Source of the DNA: a virus
Reading direction: 5' to 3' (one strand)
Length of the DNA: 64,000 nt
Virus record (IMG/VR): IMGVR_UViG_3300045988_139374
Coordinates: 128,001-192,000 of that record
The notes under the pieces are model-generated. The model was not told where the DNA came from. It saw nothing but the letters and a program-made list of their open reading frames with translations, and searched no databases. How positions within the stretch are numbered: position 1 is the stretch's first letter; the number at the start of each line of letters is the position of its first letter. Positions 4,282 to 46,622 of this stretch are shown in pieces. A program made the position numbers and the translations under genes.

Positions 4282-4324
4282 TTTCTAATACTTCTAAATA
4301 ATTACTATAAGGAGGTAATTTATT

Positions 4325-4453
4325 ATGTGTCCTGAAAAGTCTACCGATGCAAAGTATTCTGTTATCACTGAACAGGGTGATCTGGGTCTTGGCGCAGATG
4401 TTCTGTCTGATGACGATCAGAAGATTGTCGAAGAGTCTACAGATAAGCAGTAA
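4325..4453 (+). CDS. small acidic protein (42 aa)
   Basis: Below the ORF-track length cutoff. AAGGAGG lies 8 nt upstream. Reads MCPEKSTDAKYSVITEQGDLGLGADVLSDDDQKIVEESTDKQ*. Uses CTG Leu codons. A terminator follows directly. Confidence 0.5.
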   Translation: MCPEKSTDAKYSVITEQGDLGLGADVLSDDDQKIVEESTDKQ

Positions 4454-4567: not shown

Positions 4568-5500
4568 ATGGCTGATAATGATAAATATATTGCCAGAATT
4601 CCAATCGTGCTTGATGAATTTAAGAATAAGAATAATCATCAAAACCATGAGCTGGTTGTAGATATTGATAATGAAGACCTATATATCAAAAATGGTAATG
4701 GATATATCAATATTACTGGTAAAATTAGAGAACAAATTAAGGAAATTCAGGATGGATCTTCCGTTATTCATGTAGTCACTGAACAGACCATTCCTCCTGT
4801 TAAGGATCGTGAGGAAAACCATTGGTATTATGTAATTACAGATACTGAAGATGCAGATGGTGGTAGTATGTCTACCACTTCTTACATCTATTATGGTCTT
4901 ATTAAGACATATGATACTTCTAAGAATTATCTTCTTATTGCACAAAATACTACTATCGGTTCTGATGTAGTTAAGATGACCATTGCTGAAGGTTATGTAC
5001 CTTGTTTCTACGTTCCTATTAACTATAATGCTAGCTTTAAGAATAATTCTACTAGTAAAACAATTACTGCTACAATAGAAGATCGTGTATATGCAATGAA
5101 CTCTGCTGCTGGCAGCTATATTGCATATGACGTTTATGTTCTTCAACTTTATGATGCTGGTGATTATAATATCAAAATCGATCTTACTGGTAGCAATAAT
5201 TTCTCCATTAACTTTGATACAAATGAAGCAAATGTTCCTGGATTGAAATTACCTGCTACAATGTCTGTTAAAGATGGAGATACTATCGGAACTATTGTAA
5301 CTCCTACATGGACCGATCCTAGATTTATTTTCAAAGGTTGGTCTACTAGTAAAATTGCTGCTACTATTATTGATCCAACTAAGTATAAGCCTAATGGAAA
5401 TATGACTTTGTTTGCTTGGTTTGAATACAATACTAGTACTACAGCTCTTGCATATTATGCTACTTGCCTATCTTCTACTAATAAAGCAGTGGAGGGTTAA
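4568..5500 (+). CDS. putative fibre/adhesin protein with a C-terminal InlB-B (Flg_new)-type repeat
   Basis: AGGAGG precedes the ATG at 4568; the track start at 4547 has no SD. The C-terminus FDTNEANVPG..FIFKGWSTS..NMTLFAWF fits the Listeria-Bacteroides repeat pattern. Confidence 0.55.
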   Translation: MADNDKYIARIPIVLDEFKNKNNHQNHELVVDIDNEDLYIKNGNGYINITGKIREQIKEIQDGSSVIHVVTEQTIPPVKDREENHWYYVITDTEDADGGSMSTTSYIYYGLIKTYDTSKNYLLIAQNTTIGSDVVKMTIAEGYVPCFYVPINYNASFKNNSTSKTITATIEDRVYAMNSAAGSYIAYDVYVLQLYDAGDYNIKIDLTGSNNFSINFDTNEANVPGLKLPATMSVKDGDTIGTIVTPTWTDPRFIFKGWSTSKIAATIIDPTKYKPNGNMTLFAWFEYNTSTTALAYYATCLSSTNKAVEG

Positions 5501-5502
5501 TT

Positions 5503-6654
5503 ATGGAAGATAATAATATTGTAATTGGATCTTTCTGCTCCACTGCAGAAAAAGATACATATGTTTATCCTAAAGAGATTCCTGGATATATAGCTCCTGA
5601 ACCTCAGATTCTGAAAGAAGATAATCAACGGTTCAATTTCATTTATACTCCTATTGAATATTCAATTGGATATAACCTAGATGGTGGTGAAATTGATGTT
5701 GATCTAAAATCTTCGTATACTATAGAAGATGATACCTATACACCTCCTATTCCTACAAGAAAAGATTTTGTATTCAATGGGTGGGAACCTAAATCTATTC
5801 CTGCTGGAACTATTGGAGATATTAATTTTACTGCCACTTGGAAATCTCTTCCGATTCTTAAAACTGGTACTGAACTTAATAAGATCTTTGAAACTATTGC
5901 TGGCAGTAAAGATAATATTCTAGGATTTAGAATTGTAGATTATATTAATAACTGTGTAGATGTATCTTCTACTATTACTCCTATTTATGCATCTTATGAT
6001 GACGGAATTATCAATCTTGCTTGTGAAGATGCAATTCATTGCAATGATGATATGAGTCATGCTTTTGAAGGTTTTTCTTCTCTCTACGATATTAGTTGCT
6101 TCTCTTACTTTATTGCAGCTAATGGAATGAATTGCAATTCAATGTTTAAAGATTGTATTGCTCTCTCAGATGTCCAATCTGTGGAGTATTGGAATAATGA
6201 TAAAACATTTGGTGATATTACTGATGCTTTCCTGAATACTAGTGCACTTGATGCTAATAGAACTCCTAATTGGTATATTTGGAATGTAAATATCAAATAT
6301 ATCTCTTCTTCTGGAAAGATTCTAAAAGATACTCATGTAAATAAGAAACCTGGAGAAATTGTATATCCTATTAGTATTGATGGATATAAATGCAATACTA
6401 ATTCTATTATCATAGATTCTTATGATAATATTTATACATTTATCTATACTCCTATTGAATATGAGATTAGATATAGTCTAGACAATGGAGTGCTTCCTTT
6501 TGCTAAAACTAATTATAATATTGAAGAGGAAGATTTCTATCCTGCTAAGCCTGTAAAGGATGGATATACTTTTACCAATTGGGATCCTGAATATATTCCT
6601 TCTGGTAGTACAGGTAATTATAATTTCATTGCAAATTATGCACCAAATAATTAA
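5503..6654 (+). CDS. putative adhesin: two InlB-B (Flg_new) repeats flanking a BspA/DUF285-like LRR region
   Basis: SD GGAGGG. Two repeats: YNLDGGEIDV..FVFNGWEP and YSLDNGVLPF..YTFTNWDP. The middle region (MFKDCIALSDV, AFEGFSSLYDIS) resembles DUF285/BspA LRRs. Confidence 0.55.
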   Translation: MEDNNIVIGSFCSTAEKDTYVYPKEIPGYIAPEPQILKEDNQRFNFIYTPIEYSIGYNLDGGEIDVDLKSSYTIEDDTYTPPIPTRKDFVFNGWEPKSIPAGTIGDINFTATWKSLPILKTGTELNKIFETIAGSKDNILGFRIVDYINNCVDVSSTITPIYASYDDGIINLACEDAIHCNDDMSHAFEGFSSLYDISCFSYFIAANGMNCNSMFKDCIALSDVQSVEYWNNDKTFGDITDAFLNTSALDANRTPNWYIWNVNIKYISSSGKILKDTHVNKKPGEIVYPISIDGYKCNTNSIIIDSYDNIYTFIYTPIEYEIRYSLDNGVLPFAKTNYNIEEEDFYPAKPVKDGYTFTNWDPEYIPSGSTGNYNFIANYAPNN

Positions 6655-34276: not shown

Positions 34277-34570
34277 TCTGACGCTTCTATTAAGATCAAA
34301 ACAAAGTCTGGAAAATTTTCATATAGTAGCACTTACGGAAGAAATTATACATTTTATGATTATGAAGGAATATTTATTTCTGCATCAATTGACGGTATTG
34401 CATTTAACAATGATAATTATTTGTATAATTTGTATTATCCATCATTATATTCAATTCGTGTTAGTGATAAATATATTATTAAATCTTTCAATATTATAAG
34501 TTCTGATTCAGGAGGAAATAATATTTCTGGTATTGGAGATAATTTAAACATTATTATTTGCTATATTTAA
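34277..34570 (+). other. start-less fibre C-terminal cassette (97 codons)
   Basis: Core TGACGCT at 34279-34285 is preceded by an in-frame TAA. Reads SDASIKIKTKSGKFSYSS..NLNIIICYI*. Contains no Met codon and has no SD. Its own terminator follows. Confidence 0.55.
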
Positions 34571-34577
34571 AATTATT

Positions 34578-34612
34578 CAATAGAGAAATCTCTATTGGTT
34601 TTATTTTTTTTT
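34578..34612 (+). terminator. rho-independent terminator after the cassette
   Basis: 9-bp stem CAATAGAGA / TCTCTATTG followed by a long T-run. Confidence 0.65.
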
Positions 34613-34638
34613 GTAGAATATATTAAAATACAATAATC

Positions 34639-34645
34639 TGACGCT
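34639..34645 (+). repeat. TGACGCT core site with only a stub (TAA-SDAITK*)
   Basis: AATAATCTGACGCTATTACGAAGTAG. Confidence 0.5.
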
Positions 34646-34675
34646 ATTACGAAGTAGTCTGAGAAATCTGCCAAA

Positions 34676-34720
34676 CCTCTATAAAAGGGCCTAAAATGGG
34701 CATTTTAAGAGGGTAAAATC
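34676..34720 (+). repeat. orphan copy of the fibre B leader/promoter-like sequence
   Basis: CTATAAAAGGGCCTAAAATGGGCATTTTAAGAGGGTAAAAT here, versus CTATAAATAGCCCAAAATGGGTAATTTTAAGAAAGGAAAT at 35123-35162 just upstream of the fibre B ATG. Confidence 0.5.
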
Positions 34721-34880
34721 GAGTGATTTTACACTTATTTTCAGTACTAAAAATTCAATTCAAGATAATAAATGTTTGATCAATAATCAATCTTAATTTA
34801 AAATATATAACAATATGGTAATGAAAGATGGTAGAAAAATCTTTTACCTTTAACAGCAGACACACAAACTATCTTTCATA

Positions 34881-35067
34881 CATGAAGCATTCGATTTAAG
34901 ATTTATTGTGAAGACCGCTTTTAAGAGAGTCCCTTGGACTATAAACTGTGAAGACTTCGTTTAAGAAAATCAGATAAATCCATATCCAAGCCATTAAATG
35001 TAGTAGCGTCAGATTAAAATTGTGAAGCCTGCTTATATAGATTTTTGTGAAGACGACGGTTAAGATT
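34881..35067 (+). promoter_or_regulatory. five direct repeats TGTGAAGMC-N-TTTAAGA flanking a core site
   Basis: Copies start at 34881 (CATGAAGCATTCGATTTAAGA), 34907, 34947, 35021 and 35046. The minus-orientation core at 35005-35011 lies between copies 3 and 4. Confidence 0.5.
35005..35011 (-). repeat. TGACGCT core site (minus orientation) with a 24-codon stub
   Basis: The reverse complement reads TAA TCT GAC GCT ACT ACA.. = SDATTFNGLDMDLSDFLKRSLHSL*. Confidence 0.5.
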
Positions 35068-35171
35068 ATTACTCGGTGTGGTCTTTATGATCACCCCGGA
35101 ATTTCTTTTTTAACAAAATATCACTATAAATAGCCCAAAATGGGTAATTTTAAGAAAGGAAATTTAATTTT

Positions 35172-36431
35172 ATGGCTATAATTGATAAAATTAAGGTTGG
35201 TAGCACTACCTATGATGTGTCGCCTTCTGCTTCTGGTACTCTGAACACTACTGGCACTACTAAGTTTGCTTCTAGTGACGTTGCTCAGGGAAATGCAACT
35301 GGCTGGACTAATGTAGATCAGATGACCACTGCTGATAACCATGCTACTCTGTTTACTAAGATCACTCAGATGGCAAAGAACGTCCGCTATCTGTACAATG
35401 TTCTTGGTACTGGCTTCTCCACTGGTTCTACTGTTAAGGGTCAGATTGATGGAAAAGCAGCAGCTAATCACTCTCACAAGGTTGCTCAACTGCCTACTTC
35501 TAGTACTCAAGTTAACTCCAATGACTATATTCCTACTTCTGCTCTGATCTATTCTATGAATCAGACTCTAACTTCGCTAAATGACGCTAGTAATAAACTT
35601 GGAGTCAGGATTTATAATACTAAATATGCAGTTGGAGGTATTCCTACCAAATCCCAATTTGCTGCAACTGACACTGTACAAAGCATTATTATTAAAATGC
35701 TAGGAGATATGGGTCAGAAACCCATTGACTCTTCTACACCTAATACAAGATATAAGTCTCAGAATCTTGGTACTTGGTCTAGTGTTAGTGATGTAGATAA
35801 TTTTCTTTATAGTTGTTGTCATGATACTGGTTATTATGGTGCTACTATTGGTAGTTATGTTACGATTAAAGATGGTGTATATAATAAAGAATGGATTATT
35901 GCTGGTTTTGATTGTGAAAAGAATCATAAAGCTTCCGATGGCAATACAAAGGATAATGGATATGGTATATGCTTAATACCTAAGAAGAGCTTAGGTAATT
36001 ATGTATGGGATTCTAATTCTATTATAAATGGATACAACGGATCTGAAATGCATAAGTCTACATTACCTGTAGTTGCGAATAATCTTAGAAAAGTATTAGG
36101 AAATCATCTTGTACAGCGTAATGTCCTTCTGAGTAATGCTGTAGATTCTAACTATTATGCTAAAGGCTATTTTTGGACTACTGCATATTGTACTCTTATG
36201 AGTACAGGACAAGTAACTGGTACATTTGCTTCTAATAGAAACAAGTATGATGATGGAGAAGCTAATTATAAACTTCCTTTGTTTAATTATGAAATATGGA
36301 GTTTTGATACCTGGGCCTGGTTGCGAGGGCTATTCGGCTACGGTGTCTATGGCCTTACCACTTCTGGTGGTTCTGGTTATGACATCTGTTACGTTAGTCA
36401 CGGTCTTCGCCCGCTCATTTATATTAGGTAA
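35172..36431 (+). CDS. tail-fibre paralogue B: constant N-terminal part, NDAS junction, and a C-terminal receptor-binding domain ending in the DGR variable region
   Basis: The N-terminal ~105 aa are homologous to fibre A. The in-frame core is at 35582-35588 (LNDASNK). The C-terminus WAWLRGLFGYGVYGLTTSGGSGYDICYVSHGLRPLIYIR* matches TR apart from changes at adenines. Confidence 0.8.
   Translation: MAIIDKIKVGSTTYDVSPSASGTLNTTGTTKFASSDVAQGNATGWTNVDQMTTADNHATLFTKITQMAKNVRYLYNVLGTGFSTGSTVKGQIDGKAAANHSHKVAQLPTSSTQVNSNDYIPTSALIYSMNQTLTSLNDASNKLGVRIYNTKYAVGGIPTKSQFAATDTVQSIIIKMLGDMGQKPIDSSTPNTRYKSQNLGTWSSVSDVDNFLYSCCHDTGYYGATIGSYVTIKDGVYNKEWIIAGFDCEKNHKASDGNTKDNGYGICLIPKKSLGNYVWDSNSIINGYNGSEMHKSTLPVVANNLRKVLGNHLVQRNVLLSNAVDSNYYAKGYFWTTAYCTLMSTGQVTGTFASNRNKYDDGEANYKLPLFNYEIWSFDTWAWLRGLFGYGVYGLTTSGGSGYDICYVSHGLRPLIYIR
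35580..35597 (+). repeat. in-frame core site inside fibre B (putative expression-site crossover)
   Basis: AAT GAC GCT AGT AAT AAA at codons 137-142. Shares AATGACGCT with the cassette heads. Confidence 0.55.
36317..36417 (+). repeat. DGR variable region (VR)
   Basis: 101 nt aligning to TR 37379-37497. There are 12 mismatches, all at TR adenines, plus one 18-nt gap. A GC-rich 3-prime end, GGTCTTCGCCCG, is shared (IMH-like). Confidence 0.85.
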
Positions 36432-36468
36432 TGGAACTAGCCACCTTGTGTGGCTAAGTGGAATTACC
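36427..36468 (+). promoter_or_regulatory. hairpin immediately 3-prime of VR (candidate DGR target-recognition structure and/or terminator)
   Basis: Inner stem TAGCCAC / GTGGCTA nested in outer stem GGTAAT / ATTACC. Overlaps the stop codon. Confidence 0.5.
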
Positions 36469-36537
36469 GTAATATAAATGAAAGGTGAAGGCTTAACGAG
36501 TAAATATATTATTAATATAAAATAAGAGGTGGTTTGT

Positions 36538-37347
36538 GTGTCTGTCGTTAAGGGTAAAAGAAATCAATCTGATGTTGAATATTTTGATTATGCATATAAA
36601 GTTGTGGAGCATATAACTAAATTTCTTTTATCTGATCTTGGGATTAAGAAAACTTATAGAGACTTAAAAGTTTTTACTTATAAATCTCATATGGAGGAAG
36701 CTGATAAAGAAGAATTTGAGCATTTAGTAAATAAGTATGATTTGGAATTGGAAACAGATTTTCCTAATTGGCTAATGTGCTATTATAGAGAAACATTATT
36801 AACAATCATGAGAGATCTAATCAATAATATATCTGCAGCTTATACACTATATCCAAATTCTGTTTATGAATTTAATATCAAGAAACAGTATATTTCTGAT
36901 TCTATAGCTAATTGTTTCGATTTAAAACATCAACTCCAATTAGTAATTAGAATATTTCCAGCAAATATGAAGAAATATATTCCATTTGTAAAAGAAATCG
37001 ATAAGGAAATAGAGCTTCTTAAACAGTGGCGAAAGAACTTTACAGGAATTTCTAAGAAGCATTGCTACAATCAAGATGAAATCGCTAAGAGAGATGCTAT
37101 TAAGAGAGTAAATAAGATTGAAGCAAAGAATGAGCGTAAACTTCAAGTGAACAATAATTTCCTTGTAGAATATATGAAAGCAGTTTACACTCAACAAGTG
37201 CTTATGGATAATCTATATCATACAACCTTCTATTATAATCAGCAAAATCAGTATTGCTCCGAACTGCCTATTGCAGCTTGTACATTCTTTGATCAAAATG
37301 GATATTATATTGGAGATTCTGCTCATGATTTTGTTACAACTAACTAA
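36538..37347 (+). CDS. avd: DGR accessory protein (Avd-like by position; longer than canonical Avd)
   Basis: Lies between the target gene and TR. Helical, basic/acidic composition. AAGAGG lies 8 nt before the in-frame GTG at 36538 (track start GTG 36529). Confidence 0.45.
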   Translation: MSVVKGKRNQSDVEYFDYAYKVVEHITKFLLSDLGIKKTYRDLKVFTYKSHMEEADKEEFEHLVNKYDLELETDFPNWLMCYYRETLLTIMRDLINNISAAYTLYPNSVYEFNIKKQYISDSIANCFDLKHQLQLVIRIFPANMKKYIPFVKEIDKEIELLKQWRKNFTGISKKHCYNQDEIAKRDAIKRVNKIEAKNERKLQVNNNFLVEYMKAVYTQQVLMDNLYHTTFYYNQQNQYCSELPIAACTFFDQNGYYIGDSAHDFVTTN

Positions 37348-37378
37348 ATAGTAAGGTGACTCTCTATAAATAATCTCG

Positions 37379-37497
37379 CTGGTTGCGAGGGCTATACGGC
37401 AACAACAACCTCAACAACAACAATGTCTATGGCCTTACCACTTCTGGTGGTTCTGATTATAACAACTGTAACAATAGTAACGGTCTTCGCCCGATCA
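37379..37497 (+). repeat. DGR template repeat (TR)
   Basis: 119 nt, rich in AAC/AAT codons in the VR frame (LRGLYGNNNLNNNNVYGLTTSGGSDYNNCNNSNGLRPI). Non-coding location upstream of RT. Confidence 0.85.
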
Positions 37498-37651
37498 ACA
37501 GCATCTTGGCAATTTAAGGATCGAAAGATCTGGCCAGGATGTCTGTATGAGGAGGGAGTTCCCTTTCCGAAAGGAAGAAACAATAAAGCTGGCTACGGTT
37601 CTGGCATTACGATGCTGAATCTATTGGGCTGGTATATTTTTTTTTATTTTT

Positions 37652-38938
37652 ATGATTATTGATTTTAGTAATGAAGATTGGGGCGAAAATCCCTGTGAAT
37701 ATACTGAAGGAAAATTAGATTCTATTGCAGATCCAGATAAATTATATCAATCTTATAGAAAAGCTTCTAAACCAATTTATTATAAAGCATCTACTCAAAG
37801 ATATGGATTAAATCTATTATCTAATATTGCTATTGCAAATGAAGCATTAAATAATGGATCTTATAAAATTGGAGATCCATATGAATTTATTCTCACAGAA
37901 CGCGGTAGAATTAGATATGTAAAAGCATTATATATGTTTGATCAAGTAGTGCAGAGATCTTTCAATGATAATGTATTAAATCCTGCTATTGCTAATAAGA
38001 TGATTTATGATAATGGAGCTTGTGTAAAAGGAAAAGGTGTTGCTTTTACAAGAATGAGATTTAAGCAGCATCTACAACAAGCATATTATCAATTTGGATA
38101 TGATGGTTATATAATGATCATCGATTTTTCTAAATATTTTGATAATATTCTTCATCAAGAAGCTTTAAAACAATTCGAACCTCTATTAACGCCAGAAGAA
38201 TACAATTTTCTTAAAATTACTTTTGATACATTCAAACTAGATGTATCTTATATGTCAGATGCAGAATATCTAGAAGCTAGAGATTCTCTGTTTAATCTTC
38301 TAGAATATTCTATGATGGCAAAAGAAAATTTCAAAGGATTAAAGCTTCTTGAAAAGTCTGTTGGAATTGGTAATCAAACTTCTCAAGGAACTGGAATGTA
38401 CTATCCTCATGAAATAGACAATTATGTGACTATAGTAAGAGGATATGGATTATATGGAAGGCATATGGATGATACATATGTATTTGCTAAAACTAAAGAA
38501 GAATTACAACAACTTCTTGAAGAAATAAAAGAATTGTGTAAGAATCTTGGAATTCATATTAATCTTAAGAAAACTAGAATAGAACCCATCAAGAATACAA
38601 TTTCATATCTTAAAATAAATTATAAAATTATTGAAACTGGAAGAGTATTTGAATTAGTCCCAAATAAAGTATTTAAAAGAGAAAAAGATAAATTAACAAA
38701 ATATAGGGATCTTTGCATTCAATATAAAATGACTGCTATTACAGTTCTTCAATGTTATCTTAGTTGGAGAGGTGTATATAATAAATTTGATTCTAAAAGA
38801 AAAATATATGCACTGGATTGCTATTTTAAAGATCTTTATTGTTTAGGATTTAGAGATACAAATCTATATGATTTGTTGCATTTCTATATGCGTGTAGAAA
38901 GAGAGAAATTAAATAACTATCCAGTCATGAAATATTAA
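37652..38938 (+). CDS. DGR reverse transcriptase
   Basis: IGNQTSQ (the DGR-RT hallmark) and YGRHMDDTYVF (YxDD box). No SD before the ATG. Confidence 0.85.
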   Translation: MIIDFSNEDWGENPCEYTEGKLDSIADPDKLYQSYRKASKPIYYKASTQRYGLNLLSNIAIANEALNNGSYKIGDPYEFILTERGRIRYVKALYMFDQVVQRSFNDNVLNPAIANKMIYDNGACVKGKGVAFTRMRFKQHLQQAYYQFGYDGYIMIIDFSKYFDNILHQEALKQFEPLLTPEEYNFLKITFDTFKLDVSYMSDAEYLEARDSLFNLLEYSMMAKENFKGLKLLEKSVGIGNQTSQGTGMYYPHEIDNYVTIVRGYGLYGRHMDDTYVFAKTKEELQQLLEEIKELCKNLGIHINLKKTRIEPIKNTISYLKINYKIIETGRVFELVPNKVFKREKDKLTKYRDLCIQYKMTAITVLQCYLSWRGVYNKFDSKRKIYALDCYFKDLYCLGFRDTNLYDLLHFYMRVEREKLNNYPVMKY

Positions 38939-41641: not shown

Positions 41642-41875
41642 TTAGATATAAAATATTCTTACATTATATTTTACTATAGAAATAAGTTGTTTATTTAGAT
41701 CGATATTAAATGTAACGATTACATAATTTAAATAATCAGGGACGTAATATATGGCAACATATGGAAATCCAGAGATTGAATTTATGTCTGCACATATTGC
41801 AGATATTACAATTATATTGTTAAATGATTTCATTTCTGAAATATACATATCTCTTTGCTTAATAGAAGCGTCATT
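41642..41875 (-). other. start-less fibre cassette (77 codons), last of the minus-strand array
   Basis: Core at 41867-41873. Reads NDASIKQRDMYISEMK..NVRIFYI*. Confidence 0.55.
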
Positions 41876-42168
41876 TACATATCAAAATACCAACATTTGC
41901 ATGTAATAGGATTTTTACCATCGGTATATATTTCATTATCTGCAAGCCTTCCGACTTTTGTCATATAAACTTCACAGTTAGTAACTTTAAATGTACCATC
42001 ATCAAAATATCCACTGGCAGCTATTACAGGAAATGTATAATATCCAGCATTTCCTTTTGGATATAGTATTGGCATTGCTTGAATTATATATGCTTTAGAT
42101 AAGTACCCGCATGATGCATATTCACTATATGGAACTTTACAAGTATTAGTTTTAAGAGAAGCGTCATT
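41875..42168 (-). other. start-less fibre cassette (97 codons)
   Basis: Core at 42160-42166. Reads NDASLKTNTCKVPYSEY..CKCWYFDM*. Confidence 0.55.
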
Positions 42169-42496
42169 GTGCTTTACCTTTAATATAAAATATATTAATG
42201 ATGACTTCTGCATTTGATAAAGATGTTTTGTTAAAAGGCATAATTTTTTCATGCAATGTATCAATACCTAGTATATATAATTTTCTGCCAGTTGTCCAAA
42301 TACCAGTATTTGGATCTTGTGTTGAATCGATACTTGTAGATAGGAAAGTTAAATACATTCTAACAGTATTACTACAATATGCATAGTGAGCTATAATATC
42401 ATCATCAGTAACAGAAATATCTGTATCAAGAATAAAATAAGAAATATCATTCTTTACTCTACCTTGCTTCATTTTAATTTTAGTAGAAGCGTCATT
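42164..42496 (-). other. start-less fibre cassette (110 codons)
   Basis: Core at 42488-42494. Reads NDASTKIKMKQGRVKND..NIFYIKGKAQ*. Its TGA stop lies inside the next core. Confidence 0.55.
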
Positions 42497-42506
42497 TATA
42501 TTGGTA

Positions 42507-42767
42507 TTATAGATTTTTTAAATAAAATACAATTAATCTTCTAATAGATGAATGCATTGTTAAAGTATTATTAGGGAATCCTCTTATATCTATATAATAA
42601 CATGAATCATCTTCATCATACCATATATCTACATATTCAGCTTGCTCAGTTTTACCTGTTATTTTAGATTCAATATAAAGTCCAACAATTGGAATTCCTA
42701 AATAAAAAGCTTGTTTACTACTTTTTGGAAGAGTTAATTCTATATTATATATAATAGAAGCGTCATT
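42507..42767 (-). other. start-less fibre cassette (86 codons)
   Basis: Core at 42759-42765. Reads NDASIIYNIELTLPKSS..LIVFYLKNL*. Confidence 0.55.
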
Positions 42768-43065
42768 TACCAAAATAATAATATATTTTTATATTAAATG
42801 CTGTATTTACTTTTATTAATTTATAATCATTAATTTCAAACAATTGAATTATAGAATAAAAACTACCCTTTTCATATATTCCTTGATACATTGCTGGAAA
42901 TATATACTTAGGAGAATAATTGATAGGAAATAATGTTTGATTATACGTGGTACTATACACAGCAAATATTATATATGCTGATAGCCCAGATGGCACATCA
43001 TATCTTTCTTTATATATTCCATTCTCATCAGTTGTTACATCTTTACTCTTAATAGAAGCGTCATT
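42763..43065 (-). other. start-less fibre cassette (100 codons)
   Basis: Core at 43057-43063. Reads NDASIKSKDVTTDENGIYK..NIKIYYYFGK*. Its TGA stop lies inside the next core. Confidence 0.55.
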
Positions 43066-43384
43066 CACTAATATAATAGTATATTTTAATACCAATTTTA
43101 TCTGATGGCTTTATAAGCTGTCCATTGTCATTTATTTTATATACTTGAATTACAATATATCTATTAACAGCATCTGCAATTTTTCCATATGAGCCAGAAT
43201 ATATTGCAGGAATTATATATATTGGAACATTCATTTGATTTACTAGATTTCCAGTCATTGTGGATGTATTACTATATATCGCTAAAATATTTTTATGAGA
43301 ACTAATTCCAAATACGCCTAATGCAATTTTATATTCTCCACTGCTATCAGTTTCCACTATTTCATGTTTAATAGAAGCGTCAGA
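43061..43384 (-). other. start-less fibre cassette (107 codons)
   Basis: Core at 43376-43382. Reads SDASIKHEIVETDSSGEYK..GIKIYYYISE*, paralogous to the 42763 cassette. Its TGA stop lies inside the next core. Confidence 0.55.
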
Positions 43385-43388
43385 CTTG

Positions 43389-43673
43389 TTAAATATAATA
43401 TATAATAATTGAAACATTACGTCCATTACGAGATGCCGTGCTGCCATTAATATCTGATGTATATACAAGAATAGTTCTAATTACCCATTCAACATCTGTA
43501 GTTTTAAATATTTGAATTAATGGAATAGATGAACTGGTATTTACAGCTGGATTTATGTATGCATTTATTAAAATTCCATTAGTAAATTTATATAAGTAAT
43601 CATTGTCATTTAAACCATTTGAATATTTTCTAGGATATACGGTATCAGTTTTAATCTTAATAGAAGCGTCAAA
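43389..43673 (-). other. start-less fibre cassette (94 codons), first of the minus-strand array
   Basis: Core at 43665-43671, with TAA directly 5-prime. Reads FDASIKIKTDTVYPRKYS..NVSIIIYYI*. It contains no Met codon, so it is absent from the ORF track. I translated it by hand and found no internal stop. Confidence 0.55.
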
Positions 43674-43680
43674 TTATTAG

Positions 43681-43704
43681 ATATTAAAATACTAGGTAAG
43701 GAAT
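43681..43704 (+). repeat. 24-nt exact copy of the RT gene 3-prime end plus half of its terminator (recombination scar)
   Basis: ATATTAAAATACTAGGTAAGGAAT occurs at both 38932-38955 and 43681-43704. Confidence 0.7.
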
Positions 43705-44730: not shown

Positions 44731-44898
44731 ATGGACAAATCTGATTTTTATAAAATTCTTTGTTCATCTACACCTGAAGAAATTAATCACTTTATTTCTT
44801 CTAAAGGCAAGATTAAAAATGTAAATGCTATTACATTTTTAGATGATCAAACTTTACAAGATCTACATTCTAATACGGATTCGAATCAATCTAATTAA
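44731..44898 (+). CDS. small hypothetical protein (55 aa)
   Basis: Below the track cutoff. AGGAGG lies 7 nt upstream. Reads MDKSDFYKILCSSTPEEINHFISSKGK.. Confidence 0.5.
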   Translation: MDKSDFYKILCSSTPEEINHFISSKGKIKNVNAITFLDDQTLQDLHSNTDSNQSN

Positions 44899-44919
44899 GT
44901 TATTAGCTCTTTTATATTT

Positions 44920-45001
44920 GCAGGAATGGTGGAATGGCAGACACGCTAGACTTAGGATCTAGTTCTTCGGAGTGAGGGTTCAAGTCCCTTTTCCTGCACC
45001 A
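44920..45001 (+). tRNA. trnL: tRNA-Leu (anticodon UAG), class II with a long variable arm, encoded CCA
   Basis: Acceptor GCAGGAA / TTCCTGC. Anticodon stem CTAGA / TCTAG with loop CTTAGGA. T-arm GAGGG TTCAAGT CCCTT. 3-prime ACCA. Confidence 0.85.
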
Positions 45002-45033
45002 TGTAGAATTATCTCCCCTAATTCTACTCATAA

Positions 45034-45110
45034 GGGCTATTAGCTTAGTTGGTCAGAGCTTCTGGCTCATAACCGGATGGTCGTAGGTTCGAGTCCTACA
45101 TGGCCCACCA
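45034..45110 (+). tRNA. trnM: tRNA with CAU anticodon (elongator Met or lysidine-modified Ile2), encoded CCA
   Basis: Acceptor GGGCTAT / ATGGCCC. Anticodon stem TCTGG / CCGGA with loop CTCATAA. T-arm GTAGG TTCGAGT CCTAC. The 1-72 pair is G-C, so it is not initiator-like. Confidence 0.8.
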
Positions 45111-46050
45111 TTAGAGATTAAGATACCACACACGCTAACGCTATTTTAATCTCTTTTCTTTCTTGTGTATAGAGGGTGGAAGAAACACAAGATAGAGATT
45201 CAAGTTCATTTCTTTCTTTCTTCTTGAATCTCGAAGCGAGGTTCGATTCATTAGTTCCGCAACCTAATGATGGTGCAGTACGATTCTGCAGGGGATAAAT
45301 AGATTTGGCCACTCCTTTCAATTTATTCCTAACGCTTAGATCCATTTGATCTAGCCTGCGTGCCTATTTGATCGGTTACGTAAAGATTCCTGACGGGAAC
45401 TACGTTTAATTTGAAATACAATAGCCGCGTATAAAAATTGTATTTATTATTTCTTTTCTTTCTGATCAATAGAATTAAATTATAAATGCAATGGAGGATT
45501 AGATGGCCCAAATAATGACTACTGGGAGAATGTAGTAAGTCTCGAAAGTATCTACCGAGACGGGAGAATATAATGTGGCTCATATAACTATTCCTTCTGT
45601 AGGCTAGTTATTATTGCCACATTATGAATGGACATAGATACTCTTGTAAATTCTAAGGAGGCTAAGTTATACTTGTTACTACTGATCATAGTGGGTATAA
45701 CTTTATTAATGGTGGCCGCAGATGTAAAGAATTTACTGGATCTAATGTAAATCATCTAGCATTAGATTAAGAAAATAATTATGTATTTATATTGTGCGAT
45801 ATAAATATCTTAATTAAGATGAGCTGTGGGTATGAGATTGGATTATTGACCCTCTATACTACCATCTAAAGCATCCTTTTGGTAGTGAAGTTAGATGCCT
45901 TTTTCTGGTATTGGTTTTCGAAGGAAGAATAGATGTGCTCGGGCAGAACGAGCGGAATAACCTATACCCTCCTAACTAAGATTGTGGTGGACATTTATCA
46001 AGTTCGAGCCTTGAATCTTGGACAATAAGAATGATTCTATTTGAGAAAAA
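45111..46050 (+). ncRNA. candidate large structured ncRNA(s), unclassified
   Basis: About 0.95 kb with no plus-strand ORF of 60 aa or more. Visibly richer in G+C than the flanks. Lies directly 3-prime of two tRNAs. Contains many perfect local stems, e.g. 45113-21/45146-54 (9 bp), 45195-204/45223-32 (10 bp), 45414-22/45437-45 (9 bp), 45570-79/45616-25 (10 bp). T-loop-like GGTTCGATTC and CAAGTTCGAGCCTTG are present. Confidence 0.4.
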
Positions 46051-46069
46051 GAAAGAGAGATGACCGATC

Positions 46070-46573
46070 ATGACAAGTGCATATGATATCATTAAAGATG
46101 TCAAAAGTAATGTCACCCAGTGCTCTTCATCTAAAAAGGATGAGATTACTGTTATGCAGGCTATGATGAATGATACTAACTTTTCAGTTGATGTTTATTC
46201 TAAGGGTGGCAAGGTTGATGAGTACTATCCTTCTCGTGAGTTGAGAAAGGTAGTAACTAACGTAGTAGCTTCTACTACTCATATTCCTGTTAAGGAAGCT
46301 ACTGAACTTGTTAATGCTTATGAATTCACTAGAGTAGATGCGGCTGCTATGGTGAATATGTCTAAGGAATTTGTTAATACTTATCTTCAGACTGGTAGAA
46401 AACTTCCTCTTGGAGGCCGTAAGAATTCTGATATTGAACTCATGTGGAAGAACATTGAAGATCGTACTACAGAAATTCCTATTAAATCTGAAACTGGTGA
46501 ACGTCTGAATACGTTCATTCCCGCTCATGGTGGCATTAAGGCTATCAATCCTTGCCCTGAGTGGTTGAAATAA
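46070..46573 (+). CDS. hypothetical protein
   Basis: ORF from the track. SD is weak. A terminator follows. The antisense ORF 46184..46633 is an artefact. Confidence 0.55.
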   Translation: MTSAYDIIKDVKSNVTQCSSSKKDEITVMQAMMNDTNFSVDVYSKGGKVDEYYPSRELRKVVTNVVASTTHIPVKEATELVNAYEFTRVDAAAMVNMSKEFVNTYLQTGRKLPLGGRKNSDIELMWKNIEDRTTEIPIKSETGERLNTFIPAHGGIKAINPCPEWLK

Positions 46574-46587
46574 ATTTTTAAGATTCT

Positions 46588-46622
46588 GGGGAAGGCCATT
46601 TAGGTCTTCCCCGCTTCTTTTG
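46588..46622 (+). terminator. rho-independent terminator
   Basis: Stem GGGGAAGGCC / GGTCTTCCCC (one G-U pair) followed by a T-rich tail. Confidence 0.6.

What the first reader, a model, noticed from the sequence alone, without database searches (positions are those of the whole stretch)
45111..46069. 0.95-kb ORF-free, hairpin-dense region immediately 3-prime of two tRNAs: candidate large ncRNA
This is the longest non-coding stretch in a tightly packed genome. It is richer in G+C than its surroundings and has no plus-strand ORF of 60 aa or more. It contains at least nine perfect local stems of 6-10 bp, including AGAGATTAA/TTAATCTCT, GAGATTCAAG/CTTGAATCTC, AAATACAAT/ATTGTATTT, ATAATGTGGC/GCCACATTAT, GTCTCG/CGAGAC and ACTACCA/TGGTAGT. 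T-loop-like elements (GGTTCGATTC, CAAGTTCGAGCCTTG) are also present. Large ornate RNAs found in phages and prophages (GOLLD, ROOL) are typically located next to tRNA genes. Alternatives are a group I intron remnant, a cluster of sRNAs or tRNA-like elements, or a packaging or replication cis element.
Basis: partly seen in the sequence, partly recalled or inferred. Interest (0 to 1): 0.65.

Follow-up and report, generated by a model that had tools for sequence, protein, structure and literature searches.

The report
Large structured RNA beside phage tRNAs
The 0.95-kb gap after two tRNA genes in this human-gut jumbo phage most likely encodes one large, intricately folded non-coding RNA, built on a small RNA motif (RAGATH-36) that many gut phages carry inside their tRNA gene clusters and whose function is unknown.

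Summary
Window 45111-46069 has no conserved ORF, all the listed stems are present, and it folds better than shuffled sequence (z about -4).

It is not GOLLD, ROOL, an intron, tmRNA or a tRNA: Rfam and ARAGORN find nothing there at threshold.

Fifteen distinct copies from human-gut contigs fall into two lineages about 61% identical. They share a consensus fold of 190 pairs, 55 of them with compensatory changes. Column-shuffled alignments give 11-25 such pairs.

G·U pairs outnumber A·C pairs 391 to 6, so the RNA is on the + strand, like the tRNAs.

Positions 45234-45337 form a four-way junction with two T-loop-like elements. This is the conserved 5' half of Rfam RAGATH-36. A model built without this lineage scores it 73 bits. 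In the phage and gut Clostridia contigs examined, the motif usually has tRNA genes nearby on the same strand.

The remaining ~680 nt are specific to this clade. They form two large domains closed by long-range helices and end in a tRNA-like acceptor/T-arm minihelix.

A relative whose flanking protein is 80% identical has the tRNAs and core only. More distant relatives have neither.

Function is inferred, not shown. No transcript data could be obtained.

The parts
44920..45001 (+). tRNA-Leu (anticodon UAG), first gene of the tRNA + RNA module
   Evidence: ARAGORN; Rfam tRNA 58.5 bits. Present in all relatives that carry the RNA.
45034..45110 (+). tRNA-Met (anticodon CAU) with encoded CCA. Its 3' end abuts the RNA region.
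   Evidence: ARAGORN; Rfam tRNA 66.9 bits.
45113..45232 (+). Leader made of three hairpins: 45113-45154, about 45161-45192 and 45195-45232. U/C-rich tracts lie at 45155-45164 and in the loop of the third hairpin.
   Evidence: Local fold z = -3.5. Hairpin 1 has 2 compensated pairs, and the third hairpin is replaced in lineage B by a different but still complementary stem. L154 has a homologous leader.
45234..45337 (+). Core four-way junction of RAGATH-36 type. P1 is AAGCG 45234-38 / CGCUU 45333-37. J1/2 is AGGUUCGAU. P2 is 45248-54 / 45264-70. The linker is UGG. P3 is 45274-78 / 45286-90 with a UACGAUU loop (T-arm look-alike). P4 is 45291-99 / 45322-30.
   Evidence: Rfam RAGATH-36 sub-threshold hit of 29 bits, E 0.0014. 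Independent model R2 scores 73.4 bits, E about 3e-20, the only hit in 64 kb. On 23 distinct sequences, 17 of 26 pairs covary and 94% of cells are paired against 34-47% for slid controls.
45342..45506 (+). Domain 2, about 165 nt, closed by the long-range helix CCAUUUGA 45342-49 / UUAGAUGG 45499-506. It starts 4 nt after the core.
   Evidence: The closing helix has 8 pairs, 3 with changes on both sides and 2 with one-sided changes, and none broken in 15 sequences. Inner helices 12-15 carry 12 more compensated pairs.
45518..45561 (+). Two hairpins. H16 is 45518-36. H17 is 45539-61 with an invariant 11-nt loop AAAGUAUCUAC. Loop bases 45547-54 are perfectly complementary to the invariant UAGAUACU at 45635-42, a candidate pseudoknot.
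   Evidence: H16 has 4 of 6 pairs compensated. H17 pair 438/452 occurs as C-G, U-A and U-G, including a C-G to U-A swap within lineage A. The complementarity is shown. The pseudoknot itself is an inference, because neither partner varies.
45562..45973 (+). Domain 3, about 410 nt, closed by the long-range helix GGGAG 45562-66 / CUCCU 45969-73. It contains about ten helices and several invariant single-stranded blocks, such as GUAAAUCAUCUAGCA and AGAUGAGCUGU.GGUAUGAGA.
   Evidence: The closing helix has 2 compensated pairs. Helices 21-28 carry about 21 compensated pairs. Natural indels sit at or near predicted loops: L176 lacks the tip of helix 28, and L170/L174 have an insertion in the helix 26 loop.
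45976..46021 (+). tRNA 'top-half'-like minihelix. It has a 7-bp acceptor-like stem CUAAGAU 45976-82 / AUCUUGG 46015-21. A 5-bp arm UCAAG/CUUGA with the 7-nt loop UUCGAGC (45998-46014) abuts the 3' strand, as a T arm does in tRNA.
   Evidence: Read directly from the sequence. It is almost invariant in all 15 copies, so covariation cannot test it. RNAalifold predicts the outer stem but a different inner hairpin. ARAGORN and Rfam do not call it a tRNA.
46022..46069 (+). Purine-rich linker to the next gene, containing its presumed ribosome-binding site. AAGAAAGAG 46049-57 is predicted to pair with UUCUUUCUU 45156-64.
   Evidence: Helix 2 has 8 pairs with no change on both sides and is low-complexity, so the pairing is unproven. 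L154 has a homologous linker directly after the core.
46070..46573 (+). 167-aa ORF of unknown function. It is the downstream neighbour and was used to find syntenic relatives. A terminator-like hairpin follows at 46587-46613.
   Evidence: ORF list. It has 237 homologues with no Pfam or PHROG family. The terminator scan is.

Best explanation
Shown: window 45111-46069 is a conserved, non-coding sequence under selection for RNA secondary structure. The structure signal favours the + strand, the strand of the two tRNA genes it follows. Its helices abut one another with 0-4 nt linkers. Two long-range helices enclose domains of about 165 and 410 nt. The simplest reading is therefore one large RNA of roughly 0.8-0.95 kb rather than a string of small ones.

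Its 5' domain (45234-45337) is a member of a family of four-way-junction RNAs that includes the conserved 5' half of Rfam RAGATH-36. The defining parts are an invariant P1 (AAGCG/CGCUU), a junction strand AGGUUCGAU, a variable hairpin, UGG, a 5-bp hairpin with loop UAMGAUU (10 of 11 positions of a canonical tRNA T arm), a variable hairpin, and CCUAACGCUUAG. In the gut phage and prophage-like contigs examined, this core usually has tRNA genes nearby on the same strand. It occurs alone, with a short 3' domain (classical RAGATH-36), or with a 0.7-0.8 kb extension. The window is of the last kind. Its ~680-nt extension is clade-specific and ends in an acceptor-stem/T-arm minihelix.

Inferred: the RNA is co-transcribed with tRNA-Leu and tRNA-Met. 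It is probably cut out of the precursor by the host tRNA-processing enzymes. The 3' processing of tRNA-Met would define its 5' side, and RNase P-type recognition of the 3' minihelix would define its 3' side, as happens for MALAT1/mascRNA.

Inferred: the product acts as a stable, folded RNA in tRNA-related biology during infection. The two T-loop signatures plus the invariant UGG are the features that RNase P RNA, T-box leaders and the ribosome use to grip the tRNA elbow and CCA end. My working mechanism is therefore that the core docks onto tRNA, or imitates it towards a tRNA-binding protein, and that the extension is an accessory scaffold.
For: Non-coding: no ORF is shared by the 15 copies.

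Conservation: three IMG/VR relatives and 16 gut metagenome contigs carry the region. Invariant blocks alternate with variable stems.

Structure: RNAalifold gives 190 pairs, 55 of them compensated, at -126 kcal/mol. With 3' partners slid by 1-3 columns, only 2-8 pairs are compensated and 41-50% of cells are paired, against 99.3%. Twelve column shuffles give 77-117 pairs, 11-25 compensated pairs and -26 to -46 kcal/mol.

Strand: there are 391 G·U cells against 6 A·C cells. The reverse complement gives only 35 compensated pairs and -80 kcal/mol.

Core family: Rfam gives a RAGATH-36 hit with E 0.0014. Bona fide RAGATH-36 in other loci shares the same upstream AAGCGAGGUUCGAU + P2. Core covariation is 17 of 26 pairs. 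The lineage-independent model R2 scores 73.4 bits.

tRNA linkage: 15 of 21 core copies have same-strand tRNAs within the fetched locus, often within 33-400 nt.

Modularity: L154 has the tRNAs plus the core only. L004, L155, L157, L160 and L161 have neither. A second phage group has the core plus about 770 nt between tRNA-Leu/Gly and tRNA-Glu.

Established knowledge: tRNA-elbow recognition by T-loops in RNase P and T-box RNAs (reviewed in PMC4810234 and PMC4919913, found; I saw only their abstracts).
Against: A single discrete RNA, its ends and its stability are therefore all inferred.

The 15 copies are effectively two lineages plus recombinants, so most compensatory changes trace to one split. 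An independent test using only the window's own MFE structure is much weaker. Of pairs changed on both sides in L002, 62% stay canonical, against 31-56% for slid controls, and many single-sequence pairs are broken.

P1, both T-loop elements and the 3' minihelix never vary, so covariation says nothing about them.

The Rfam RAGATH-36 score is far below the gathering cut-off (29 against 70 bits).

No homologue of the extension was found outside this clade.

The tRNA-docking or tRNA-mimicry function rests on sequence signatures and genomic context only.
Confidence: 0.6

Rival explanations
1. The region is a long structured 5' leader that controls, in cis, the translation or stability of the downstream 167-aa gene and the giant virion-protein gene. 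It might work by pairing its U/C-rich tracts with the purine-rich ribosome-binding region.
For: No strong intrinsic terminator lies between the tRNAs and the 167-aa gene. The only consensus terminator is after that gene, at 46587-46613. RNAalifold pairs 45156-64 with 46049-57, just upstream of the start codon. In L154 the core sits 45 nt from the start codon, like a riboswitch aptamer.
Against: In most other phages the same core is followed by tRNA genes or other RNAs, not by a particular ORF. The predicted 5'-3' pairing is low-complexity and shows no change on both sides. Relatives express the same gene without any leader.
Confidence: 0.15
2. The region is not one RNA. It is a row of independent small RNAs and processing hairpins: a RAGATH-36-like sRNA, several hairpin sRNAs and a tRNA-like fragment, released from the tRNA operon transcript.
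For: The core exists on its own in L154. In other phages it is a separate ~100-190 nt element between ORFs and tRNAs. The extension is absent or unrelated elsewhere. A hairpin followed by a U/C tract occurs twice, at 45113-45164 and 45414-45463 (repeat D11).
Against: Two long-range helices with compensatory changes enclose 165 and 410 nt. Linkers between consecutive domains are only 0-4 nt, and no consensus promoters or terminators separate them.
Confidence: 0.15
3. The region is decayed tRNA genes, or otherwise neutral spacer, whose hairpins and T-loop-like strings are remnants without present function.
For: There are T-arm-like strings at 45240, 45274-90 and 45998-46014. The region sits next to tRNA genes. 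The module is dispensable in relatives.
Against: Invariant blocks persist between lineages that are only ~61% identical overall. Structure and compensatory signal lie far above shuffled alignments. The core is conserved across unrelated phages. ARAGORN and the Rfam tRNA model find nothing in the region.
Confidence: 0.04
4. The region is a DNA-level cis element, such as a replication origin or a packaging or recombination site made of DNA hairpins, or else a group I/II intron or intron remnant.
For: The region is hairpin-dense and both strands fold better than shuffles. It lies at the border between replication/transcription genes and virion genes.
Against: 391 G·U cells against 6 A·C cells show that pairing is selected on one strand as RNA. 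There is no repeat array or iterons. Composition and GC skew are given. No Rfam intron family matches even at E<=10. No gene is interrupted: the flanks are a complete tRNA and a complete ORF, and relatives lacking the element have the same intact neighbours.
Confidence: 0.03

Closest known systems
RAGATH-36 RNA motif (Rfam RF03104; a candidate structured RNA of unknown function, found by comparative genomics near genes that accompany twister/hammerhead ribozymes; origin recalled from my own knowledge)
   Same: It shares the UGG, the 5-bp hairpin with loop UAMGAUU, the adjacent variable hairpin, and CCUAACGCUUAG (alignment). It shares the same unmodelled upstream part, AAGCGAGGUUCGAU plus a hairpin, in all bona fide members examined. 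It has the same setting in phage or prophage-like contigs, with tRNA genes, RAGATH-4, RAGATH-16 and pistol ribozymes in the same loci.
   Different: It scores 29 bits against a cut-off of 70. The classical ~60-nt 3' domain and terminal GNRA hairpin are not recognisably present. In their place are ~680 nt of clade-specific structured RNA. The host phage is a jumbo phage unrelated to the ~65-145 kb contigs that carry the classical form.
GOLLD and ROOL large ornate RNAs
   Same: Like them it is large (>500 nt), multi-domain, phage-borne and next to tRNA genes. That background comes from my own knowledge and from PMC12286853, listed (abstract only).
   Different: There is no match to either covariance model at the gathering threshold or at E<=10, and I found no shared motifs. 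Nothing is known about oligomerisation here.
tRNA-like structures that are processed by tRNA enzymes (MALAT1 mascRNA, the tmRNA tRNA-like domain, bacterial YrlA Y RNAs)
   Same: There is an acceptor-like 7-bp stem with a 5-bp/7-nt T-arm look-alike abutting its 3' strand at 45976-46021, at the 3' end of a long RNA. The core also has a GGUACGAUUCC T-arm look-alike.
   Different: tRNA and tmRNA finders do not recognise it. It has no CCA and no anticodon or D arm. Processing has not been tested. The resemblance comes from sequence reading and memory, not from a model match.
T-loop platforms of RNase P RNA, T-box stem I and the ribosomal L1 stalk (a functional analogy only)
   Same: Two pentanucleotides fit the T-loop signature (UUCGA in J1/2, UACGA in the P3 loop). 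An invariant UGG could pair with a tRNA 3' CCA. The element is strongly linked to tRNA genes. Background is in PMC4810234 and PMC4919913 (abstracts only).
   Different: There is no sequence or secondary-structure homology. Interdigitation of the two T-loops and any tRNA binding are untested.

Membership tests
RAGATH-36 (Rfam RF03104) | Score at or above the curated gathering threshold (70 bits) | tested here: not met
   29.0 bits, E 0.0014 in a 1.5-kb search. There was no hit at the gathering threshold. Relatives L002 and L003 score 29.6 and 29.1 bits.
RAGATH-36 (Rfam RF03104) | 5' half: UGG, a 5-bp hairpin with loop UAMGAUU, an adjacent hairpin, then CCUAACGCUUAG | tested here: met
   All these blocks align with compensating stem changes (alignment).
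RAGATH-36 (Rfam RF03104) | 3' half: a ~60-nt three-tier stem with GAAGGUAAGUGAGG...CUGAAAG internal loops, and a terminal hairpin with a GAAA loop | tested here: not met
   cmscan skips this part (54 model positions against 36 bases) and places the last hairpin inside domain 2. The nhmmer profile of the region matches other phages only over positions ~131-237.
Extended RAGATH-36-type core (four-way junction defined here, models R1/R2) | Significant score with a covariance model built only from other lineages | tested here: met
   R2, built from 26 sequences none from this clade, scores window 45230-45344 at 73.4 bits, E about 3e-20. This is the only hit in the 64-kb window.
Extended RAGATH-36-type core (four-way junction defined here, models R1/R2) | P2, P3 and P4 supported by covariation; P1 and the junction strands invariant | tested here: met
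   17 of 26 pairs change on both sides, and 94.3% of cells are paired against 34-47% for slid controls. P1 has no change on both sides, so it is untested by covariation.
Extended RAGATH-36-type core (four-way junction defined here, models R1/R2) | Location beside or within tRNA gene clusters of phages, on the same strand | tested here: met
   In the window it lies 119 nt downstream of tRNA-Met. 15 of 21 copies have same-strand tRNAs in the fetched locus. The GTDB hits also lie among tRNAs, and one lies next to a tmRNA.
GOLLD / ROOL | Match to the Rfam covariance models | tested here: not met
   There is no hit at the gathering threshold over the whole window and none at E<=10 over 44800-46300.
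Group I / group II introns | Match to Rfam intron models, and interruption of a host gene | tested here: not met
   There is no Rfam hit. The flanks are an intact tRNA and an intact ORF. Relatives lacking the element have the same ORFs uninterrupted.
tRNA / tmRNA | Recognition by ARAGORN or the Rfam tRNA/tmRNA models | tested here: not met
   Only the two upstream tRNAs are found, and nothing is found in 45111-46069.
HDV-like (theta) ribozymes that follow phage tRNAs | A nested double-pseudoknot HDV fold directly 3' of a tRNA | tested here: inconclusive
   No HDV-type Rfam family matched at E<=10. I did not verify that a theta-specific model is in the library, and I did not search for the fold by hand. 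The sequence after tRNA-Met forms a simple long hairpin.
Interdigitated T-loop tRNA-elbow binders (RNase P, T-box) | Two T-loops that interdigitate in 3D and stack on the tRNA elbow | not testable with these tools
   Only the sequence signatures UUCGA and UACGA and an invariant UGG are seen.

The most novel reading that the evidence does not exclude
A previously undescribed class of giant phage RNAs of about 0.9 kb, built by adding large lineage-specific domains to the twin-T-loop RAGATH-36 core. The RNA would grip tRNA at the elbow and CCA end as RNase P and T-box RNAs do, or would imitate tRNA. Either way the phage would use an RNA rather than a protein to manage, protect or hijack the tRNA pool, for example as a decoy for tRNA-cleaving defence nucleases or as a chaperone or processing platform for its own tRNAs.
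Probability: 0.12. Interest if true: 0.85.

Novelty: new variant of a known kind. Interest (0 to 1): 0.6.

Why it matters
Bacterial and phage RNAs longer than ~500 nt with complex conserved folds are rare (GOLLD, ROOL, OLE, raiA, HEARO). Each has proved structurally or mechanistically unusual.

This analysis adds three things:
- It extends RAGATH-36 into a complete four-way junction with two T-loop elements.
- It shows that this core is usually accompanied by same-strand tRNA genes in gut Clostridia phages.
- It shows that at least two phage groups have independently attached 0.7-0.8 kb of further ORF-free RNA to the core.

This gives concrete, testable objects: a ~105-nt core and a ~0.9-kb full form. 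They bear on an open question, namely what phage tRNA-cluster RNAs other than tRNAs do during infection.

Tried and rejected
- Rfam at the gathering threshold on the whole window found only the two tRNAs.
- blastn of the region against 50,697 phage records matched only tRNAs.
- tblastn of the 167-aa neighbour against those phage records found nothing.
- blastn of a bona fide RAGATH-36 against the same phage records found nothing.
- Exact-block scans of IMG/VR with five extension blocks returned either the three relatives only or chance hits. nhmmer rejected all the chance hits.
- The GTDB scan gave 72 pattern hits, of which only 8 are true cores by the covariance model.
- I looked for RAGATH-36 in the literature. 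No paper in the library names it, and the 2017 paper on 224 motifs does not use the word in its main text.
- A link to the nearby diversity-generating retroelement was rejected, because no repeat is shared with the region.
- Pairing of the leader UAGAGGGU with ACCCUCUA at 45848-55 was rejected in favour of helix 26, which has a compensated pair.
- A conserved small ORF was rejected.
- Pfam on genes next to a classical RAGATH-36 gave only a radical-SAM protein, which is not informative.
Full report
**Observation**

The region is as described. tRNA-Leu(UAG) at 44920-45001 and tRNA-Met(CAU) at 45034-45110 lie on the + strand. They are followed by 959 nt up to the ATG of a 167-aa ORF at 46070.

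The longest + strand ORF in the region is 40 aa. Minus-strand ORFs of 84, 75 and 55 aa exist but are not conserved in homologous copies.

The + strand folds to -254.4 kcal/mol against -222.7 +/- 7.3 for dinucleotide shuffles, z = -4.35. The - strand gives -223.1, z = -4.0.

The G+C claim is only half right. The region is 35.6% G+C, richer than the 26.9% upstream but not richer than the genes downstream at 36.7%.

**Genome context**

The window is part of a jumbo phage from the human gut.
- It encodes a phiKZ-type RNA polymerase beta subunit, a two-subunit topoisomerase II, a reverse transcriptase and a 3432-aa protein with peptidase, CHAP and lysozyme domains.
- A virion protein is 25-28% identical to proteins of jumbo phages of Bacillus, Staphylococcus and Listeria.
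- Near-identical contigs of 190-270 kb occur in IMG/VR and in human-gut assemblies.

**Known families**

Rfam at curated thresholds finds only the two tRNAs in all 64 kb. A permissive scan of 44800-46300 finds nothing for GOLLD, ROOL, group I or II introns, tmRNA, HDV-type ribozymes or riboswitches.

It gives one suggestive sub-threshold hit: RAGATH-36 (RF03104) at 45271-45404, 29 bits against a cut-off of 70, E = 0.0014. Two conserved blocks match almost perfectly and the stem between them changes in a compensating way.

**Relatives and presence/absence**

The 167-aa neighbour has 237 homologues of graded identity.
- Contigs whose copy is at least 89% identical carry tRNA-Leu, tRNA-Met and the whole 0.92-0.98 kb region.
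- The relative at 80% identity (L154) carries the two tRNAs, a homologous ~120-nt leader and then only a ~105-nt element. Its start codon lies 45 nt further on.
- Relatives at 42-68% identity have no tRNAs and no spacer. A small ORF abuts the gene directly.

So the tRNAs plus RNA are an accessory module. Within it, about 680 nt (roughly 45340-46022) are a further addition or, in L154, a loss.

**The core**

A pattern taken from the RAGATH-36-like blocks found 35 IMG/VR contigs. Three of these appear, from their flanking sequence, to be chance matches.

In all the true ones the conserved sequence extends upstream of the Rfam model. The layout is AAGCG-AGGUUCGAU-(hairpin)-UGG-(5-bp stem, loop UAMGAUU)-(hairpin)-CCUAA-CGCUU-AG. 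AAGCG can pair with CGCUU, which closes a four-way junction.

Several of these loci contain bona fide RAGATH-36 at 73-133 bits, together with RAGATH-4, RAGATH-16, a pistol ribozyme and many tRNAs.

On 23 distinct sequences aligned to a covariance model, 17 of 26 pairs show changes on both sides. 94.3% of cells are paired, against 34-47% when partners are slid. P1 shows no change on both sides.

A second model, built only from 26 sequences outside the window's clade, finds a single hit in the window. It covers 45230-45344 at 73.4 bits, E about 3e-20. That is independent evidence of membership in this extended core family, even though the Rfam model's threshold is not met.

In GTDB genomes the true hits are confined to gut Clostridia bins (Oscillospiraceae, Acutalibacteraceae, Herbinix, Clostridiales) and one Prevotella bin. 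Most again have tRNA genes in the same locus, and one lies beside a tmRNA. Of 21 core copies, 15 have same-strand tRNAs within the fetched locus, often within a few hundred bases.

**The whole region**

Fifteen distinct full-length copies fall into lineage A (window-like, 94-99% identical to one another), lineage B (89-97%) and two recombinants. A and B are about 61% identical. Invariant blocks alternate with diverged stems.

RNAalifold predicts 190 pairs in 31 helices, 55 of them compensated, at -126 kcal/mol. Three controls bear on this:
- Sliding the 3' partners by 1-3 columns gives 2-8 compensated pairs and 41-50% of cells paired, against 99.3%.
- Twelve column-shuffled alignments give 77-117 pairs, 11-25 compensated pairs and -26 to -46 kcal/mol.
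- The reverse complement gives 35 compensated pairs and -80 kcal/mol.

The pairs contain 391 G·U cells but only 6 A·C cells. Pairing is therefore selected at the RNA level on the + strand.

Some changes are independent events within a lineage. One example is C-G to U-A in the 45539-61 hairpin. Natural indels fall at or near predicted loops.

A stricter test used only the window's own minimum-energy fold. It is weaker: 62% of doubly changed pairs stay canonical in L002, against 31-56% for slid controls. Many single-sequence pairs are not conserved. The consensus fold, not the single-sequence fold, is what the data support. Because there are effectively two lineages, individual helices remain provisional.

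**Architecture** (window coordinates)

| Part | Coordinates | Note |
|---|---|---|
| Leader | 45113-45232 | Three hairpins |
| Core junction | 45234-45337 | Four-way junction |
| Domain 2 | 45342-45506 | Closed by an 8-bp helix with 3 compensated pairs |
| Hairpin H16 | 45518-45536 | |
| Hairpin H17 | 45539-45561 | Invariant loop AAAGUAUCUAC |
| Domain 3 | 45562-45973 | Closed by a 5-bp helix with 2 compensated pairs |
| Minihelix | 45976-46021 | Acceptor-like stem plus T-arm-like hairpin |
| Linker | 46022-46069 | Purine-rich, contains the presumed ribosome-binding site |

Eight bases of the H17 loop (45547-54) are perfectly complementary to the invariant UAGAUACU at 45635-42. This is a candidate pseudoknot.

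The minihelix reads as a 7-bp acceptor-like stem with a 5-bp/7-nt T-arm look-alike (UCAAG-UUCGAGC-CUUGA) directly abutting its 3' strand. It is almost invariant and therefore untested by covariation.

Consecutive elements are separated by 0-4 nt. No consensus promoter or terminator divides them. This favours one RNA.

**A second example of the same design**

In phages L021, L032, L034 and L036 the same core is followed by about 770 nt without credible ORFs. The whole 870-906 nt lies between tRNA-Leu or tRNA-Gly and tRNA-Glu. That extension shares no detectable sequence with the window's extension.

The core thus occurs alone (L154), with the short classical RAGATH-36 3' domain, or with large lineage-specific extensions.

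**How it probably works**

Shown: a conserved, non-coding, + strand RNA structure with a RAGATH-36-type core, linked to tRNA genes.

Inferred:
- It is co-transcribed with the two tRNAs. All features share a strand, and the only consensus terminator follows the next gene.
- It is released by tRNA-processing enzymes, with the 3' minihelix serving as an RNase P-type signal in the way mascRNA does for MALAT1.
- It acts as a folded RNA in tRNA-related biology.

The last point rests on the P3 arm, which matches 10 of 11 positions of a canonical T arm. It also rests on the tRNA-identical GGUUCGAU in the junction, the invariant UGG, and the tRNA-cluster context. T-loops and a CCA-pairing GG are how RNase P and T-box RNAs hold tRNA (PMC4810234 and PMC4919913, abstracts only).

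I put about 0.6 on "one large structured RNA with this core". I put much less, about 0.1-0.3, on any specific tRNA-docking or mimicry function.

**Rivals**

- A cis-acting leader for the 167-aa gene is possible. It does not explain the core's usual position before tRNAs in other phages.
- A row of separate small RNAs is possible. It is disfavoured by the long-range helices and the tight spacing.
- Decayed tRNA genes, a DNA cis element and an intron are each contradicted. The evidence is the conservation pattern, the G·U asymmetry, the lack of model matches and the intact flanking genes.

**Novelty**

The core is a known motif of unknown function. New here are three things: its extension to a full four-way junction, its link to tRNA clusters of gut Clostridia phages, and the finding that it anchors ~0.9-kb structured RNAs. 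I rate the finding a new variant of a known kind, of moderate to high interest. It lacks expression data and has limited phylogenetic depth for the extension.

Noticed in passing
window 35172-38938: A complete diversity-generating retroelement. The variable repeat is at 36317-36417, at the 3' end of ORF 35172-36431. The template repeat is at 37379-37497. Over the 74-nt aligned segment (36344-36417 against 37424-37497) every difference falls at an A of the template. The reverse transcriptase is ORF 37652-38938 (phrog_1423, RVT_1). ORF 36529-37347 lies between target and template and may be an accessory protein.
   Followed up: partly
window 41642-43700, minus strand: The motif TAATAGAAGCGTCATTT recurs every ~270-330 nt. 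It marks a run of back-to-back minus-strand ORFs of 68-135 aa that look like paralogous ~100-aa domains (shared ...NDASIK..., ...IKIYYY...). This is either a tandem gene family or one repeat protein broken by stops or frameshifts. The stretch is very A+T-rich (23-29% G+C).
   Followed up: no
window 34570-35172: A second ORF-poor stretch of about 600 nt lies just upstream of the gene targeted by the retroelement. It was not examined for RNA structure.
   Followed up: no
L213 4198-6761 (a 213-kb contig binned as Herbinix sp.): A phage-like tRNA cluster holds two copies of the RAGATH-36-type core (4316-4408 and 5357-5445) and a full-length tmRNA (6222-6609, 93 bits) among tRNAs.
   Followed up: partly
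L033 5521-5590; L007 13942-14249; L024, L039, L025, L204: In other phages the tRNA clusters that carry the core also carry a pistol ribozyme (L033), or RAGATH-4 and RAGATH-16 motifs 2-3 kb upstream on the same strand. This suggests a recurrent set of RNAs travelling together.
   Followed up: partly
L003 and L176 versus lineages A and B (alignment A5): Two copies are recombinants. Their first ~190 nt (leader, P1-P3 of the core) are lineage-A-like and the rest lineage-B-like, with the switch inside P4 of the core.
   Followed up: no
window 45154-45164, 45206-45222, 45448-45463 and 46045-46059: Three U/C-rich tracts (UUUCUUUCUU-like) and one complementary purine tract at the ribosome-binding site of the next gene. 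Two of the tracts follow hairpins in the same arrangement (repeat D11). Their meaning is unclear.
   Followed up: partly
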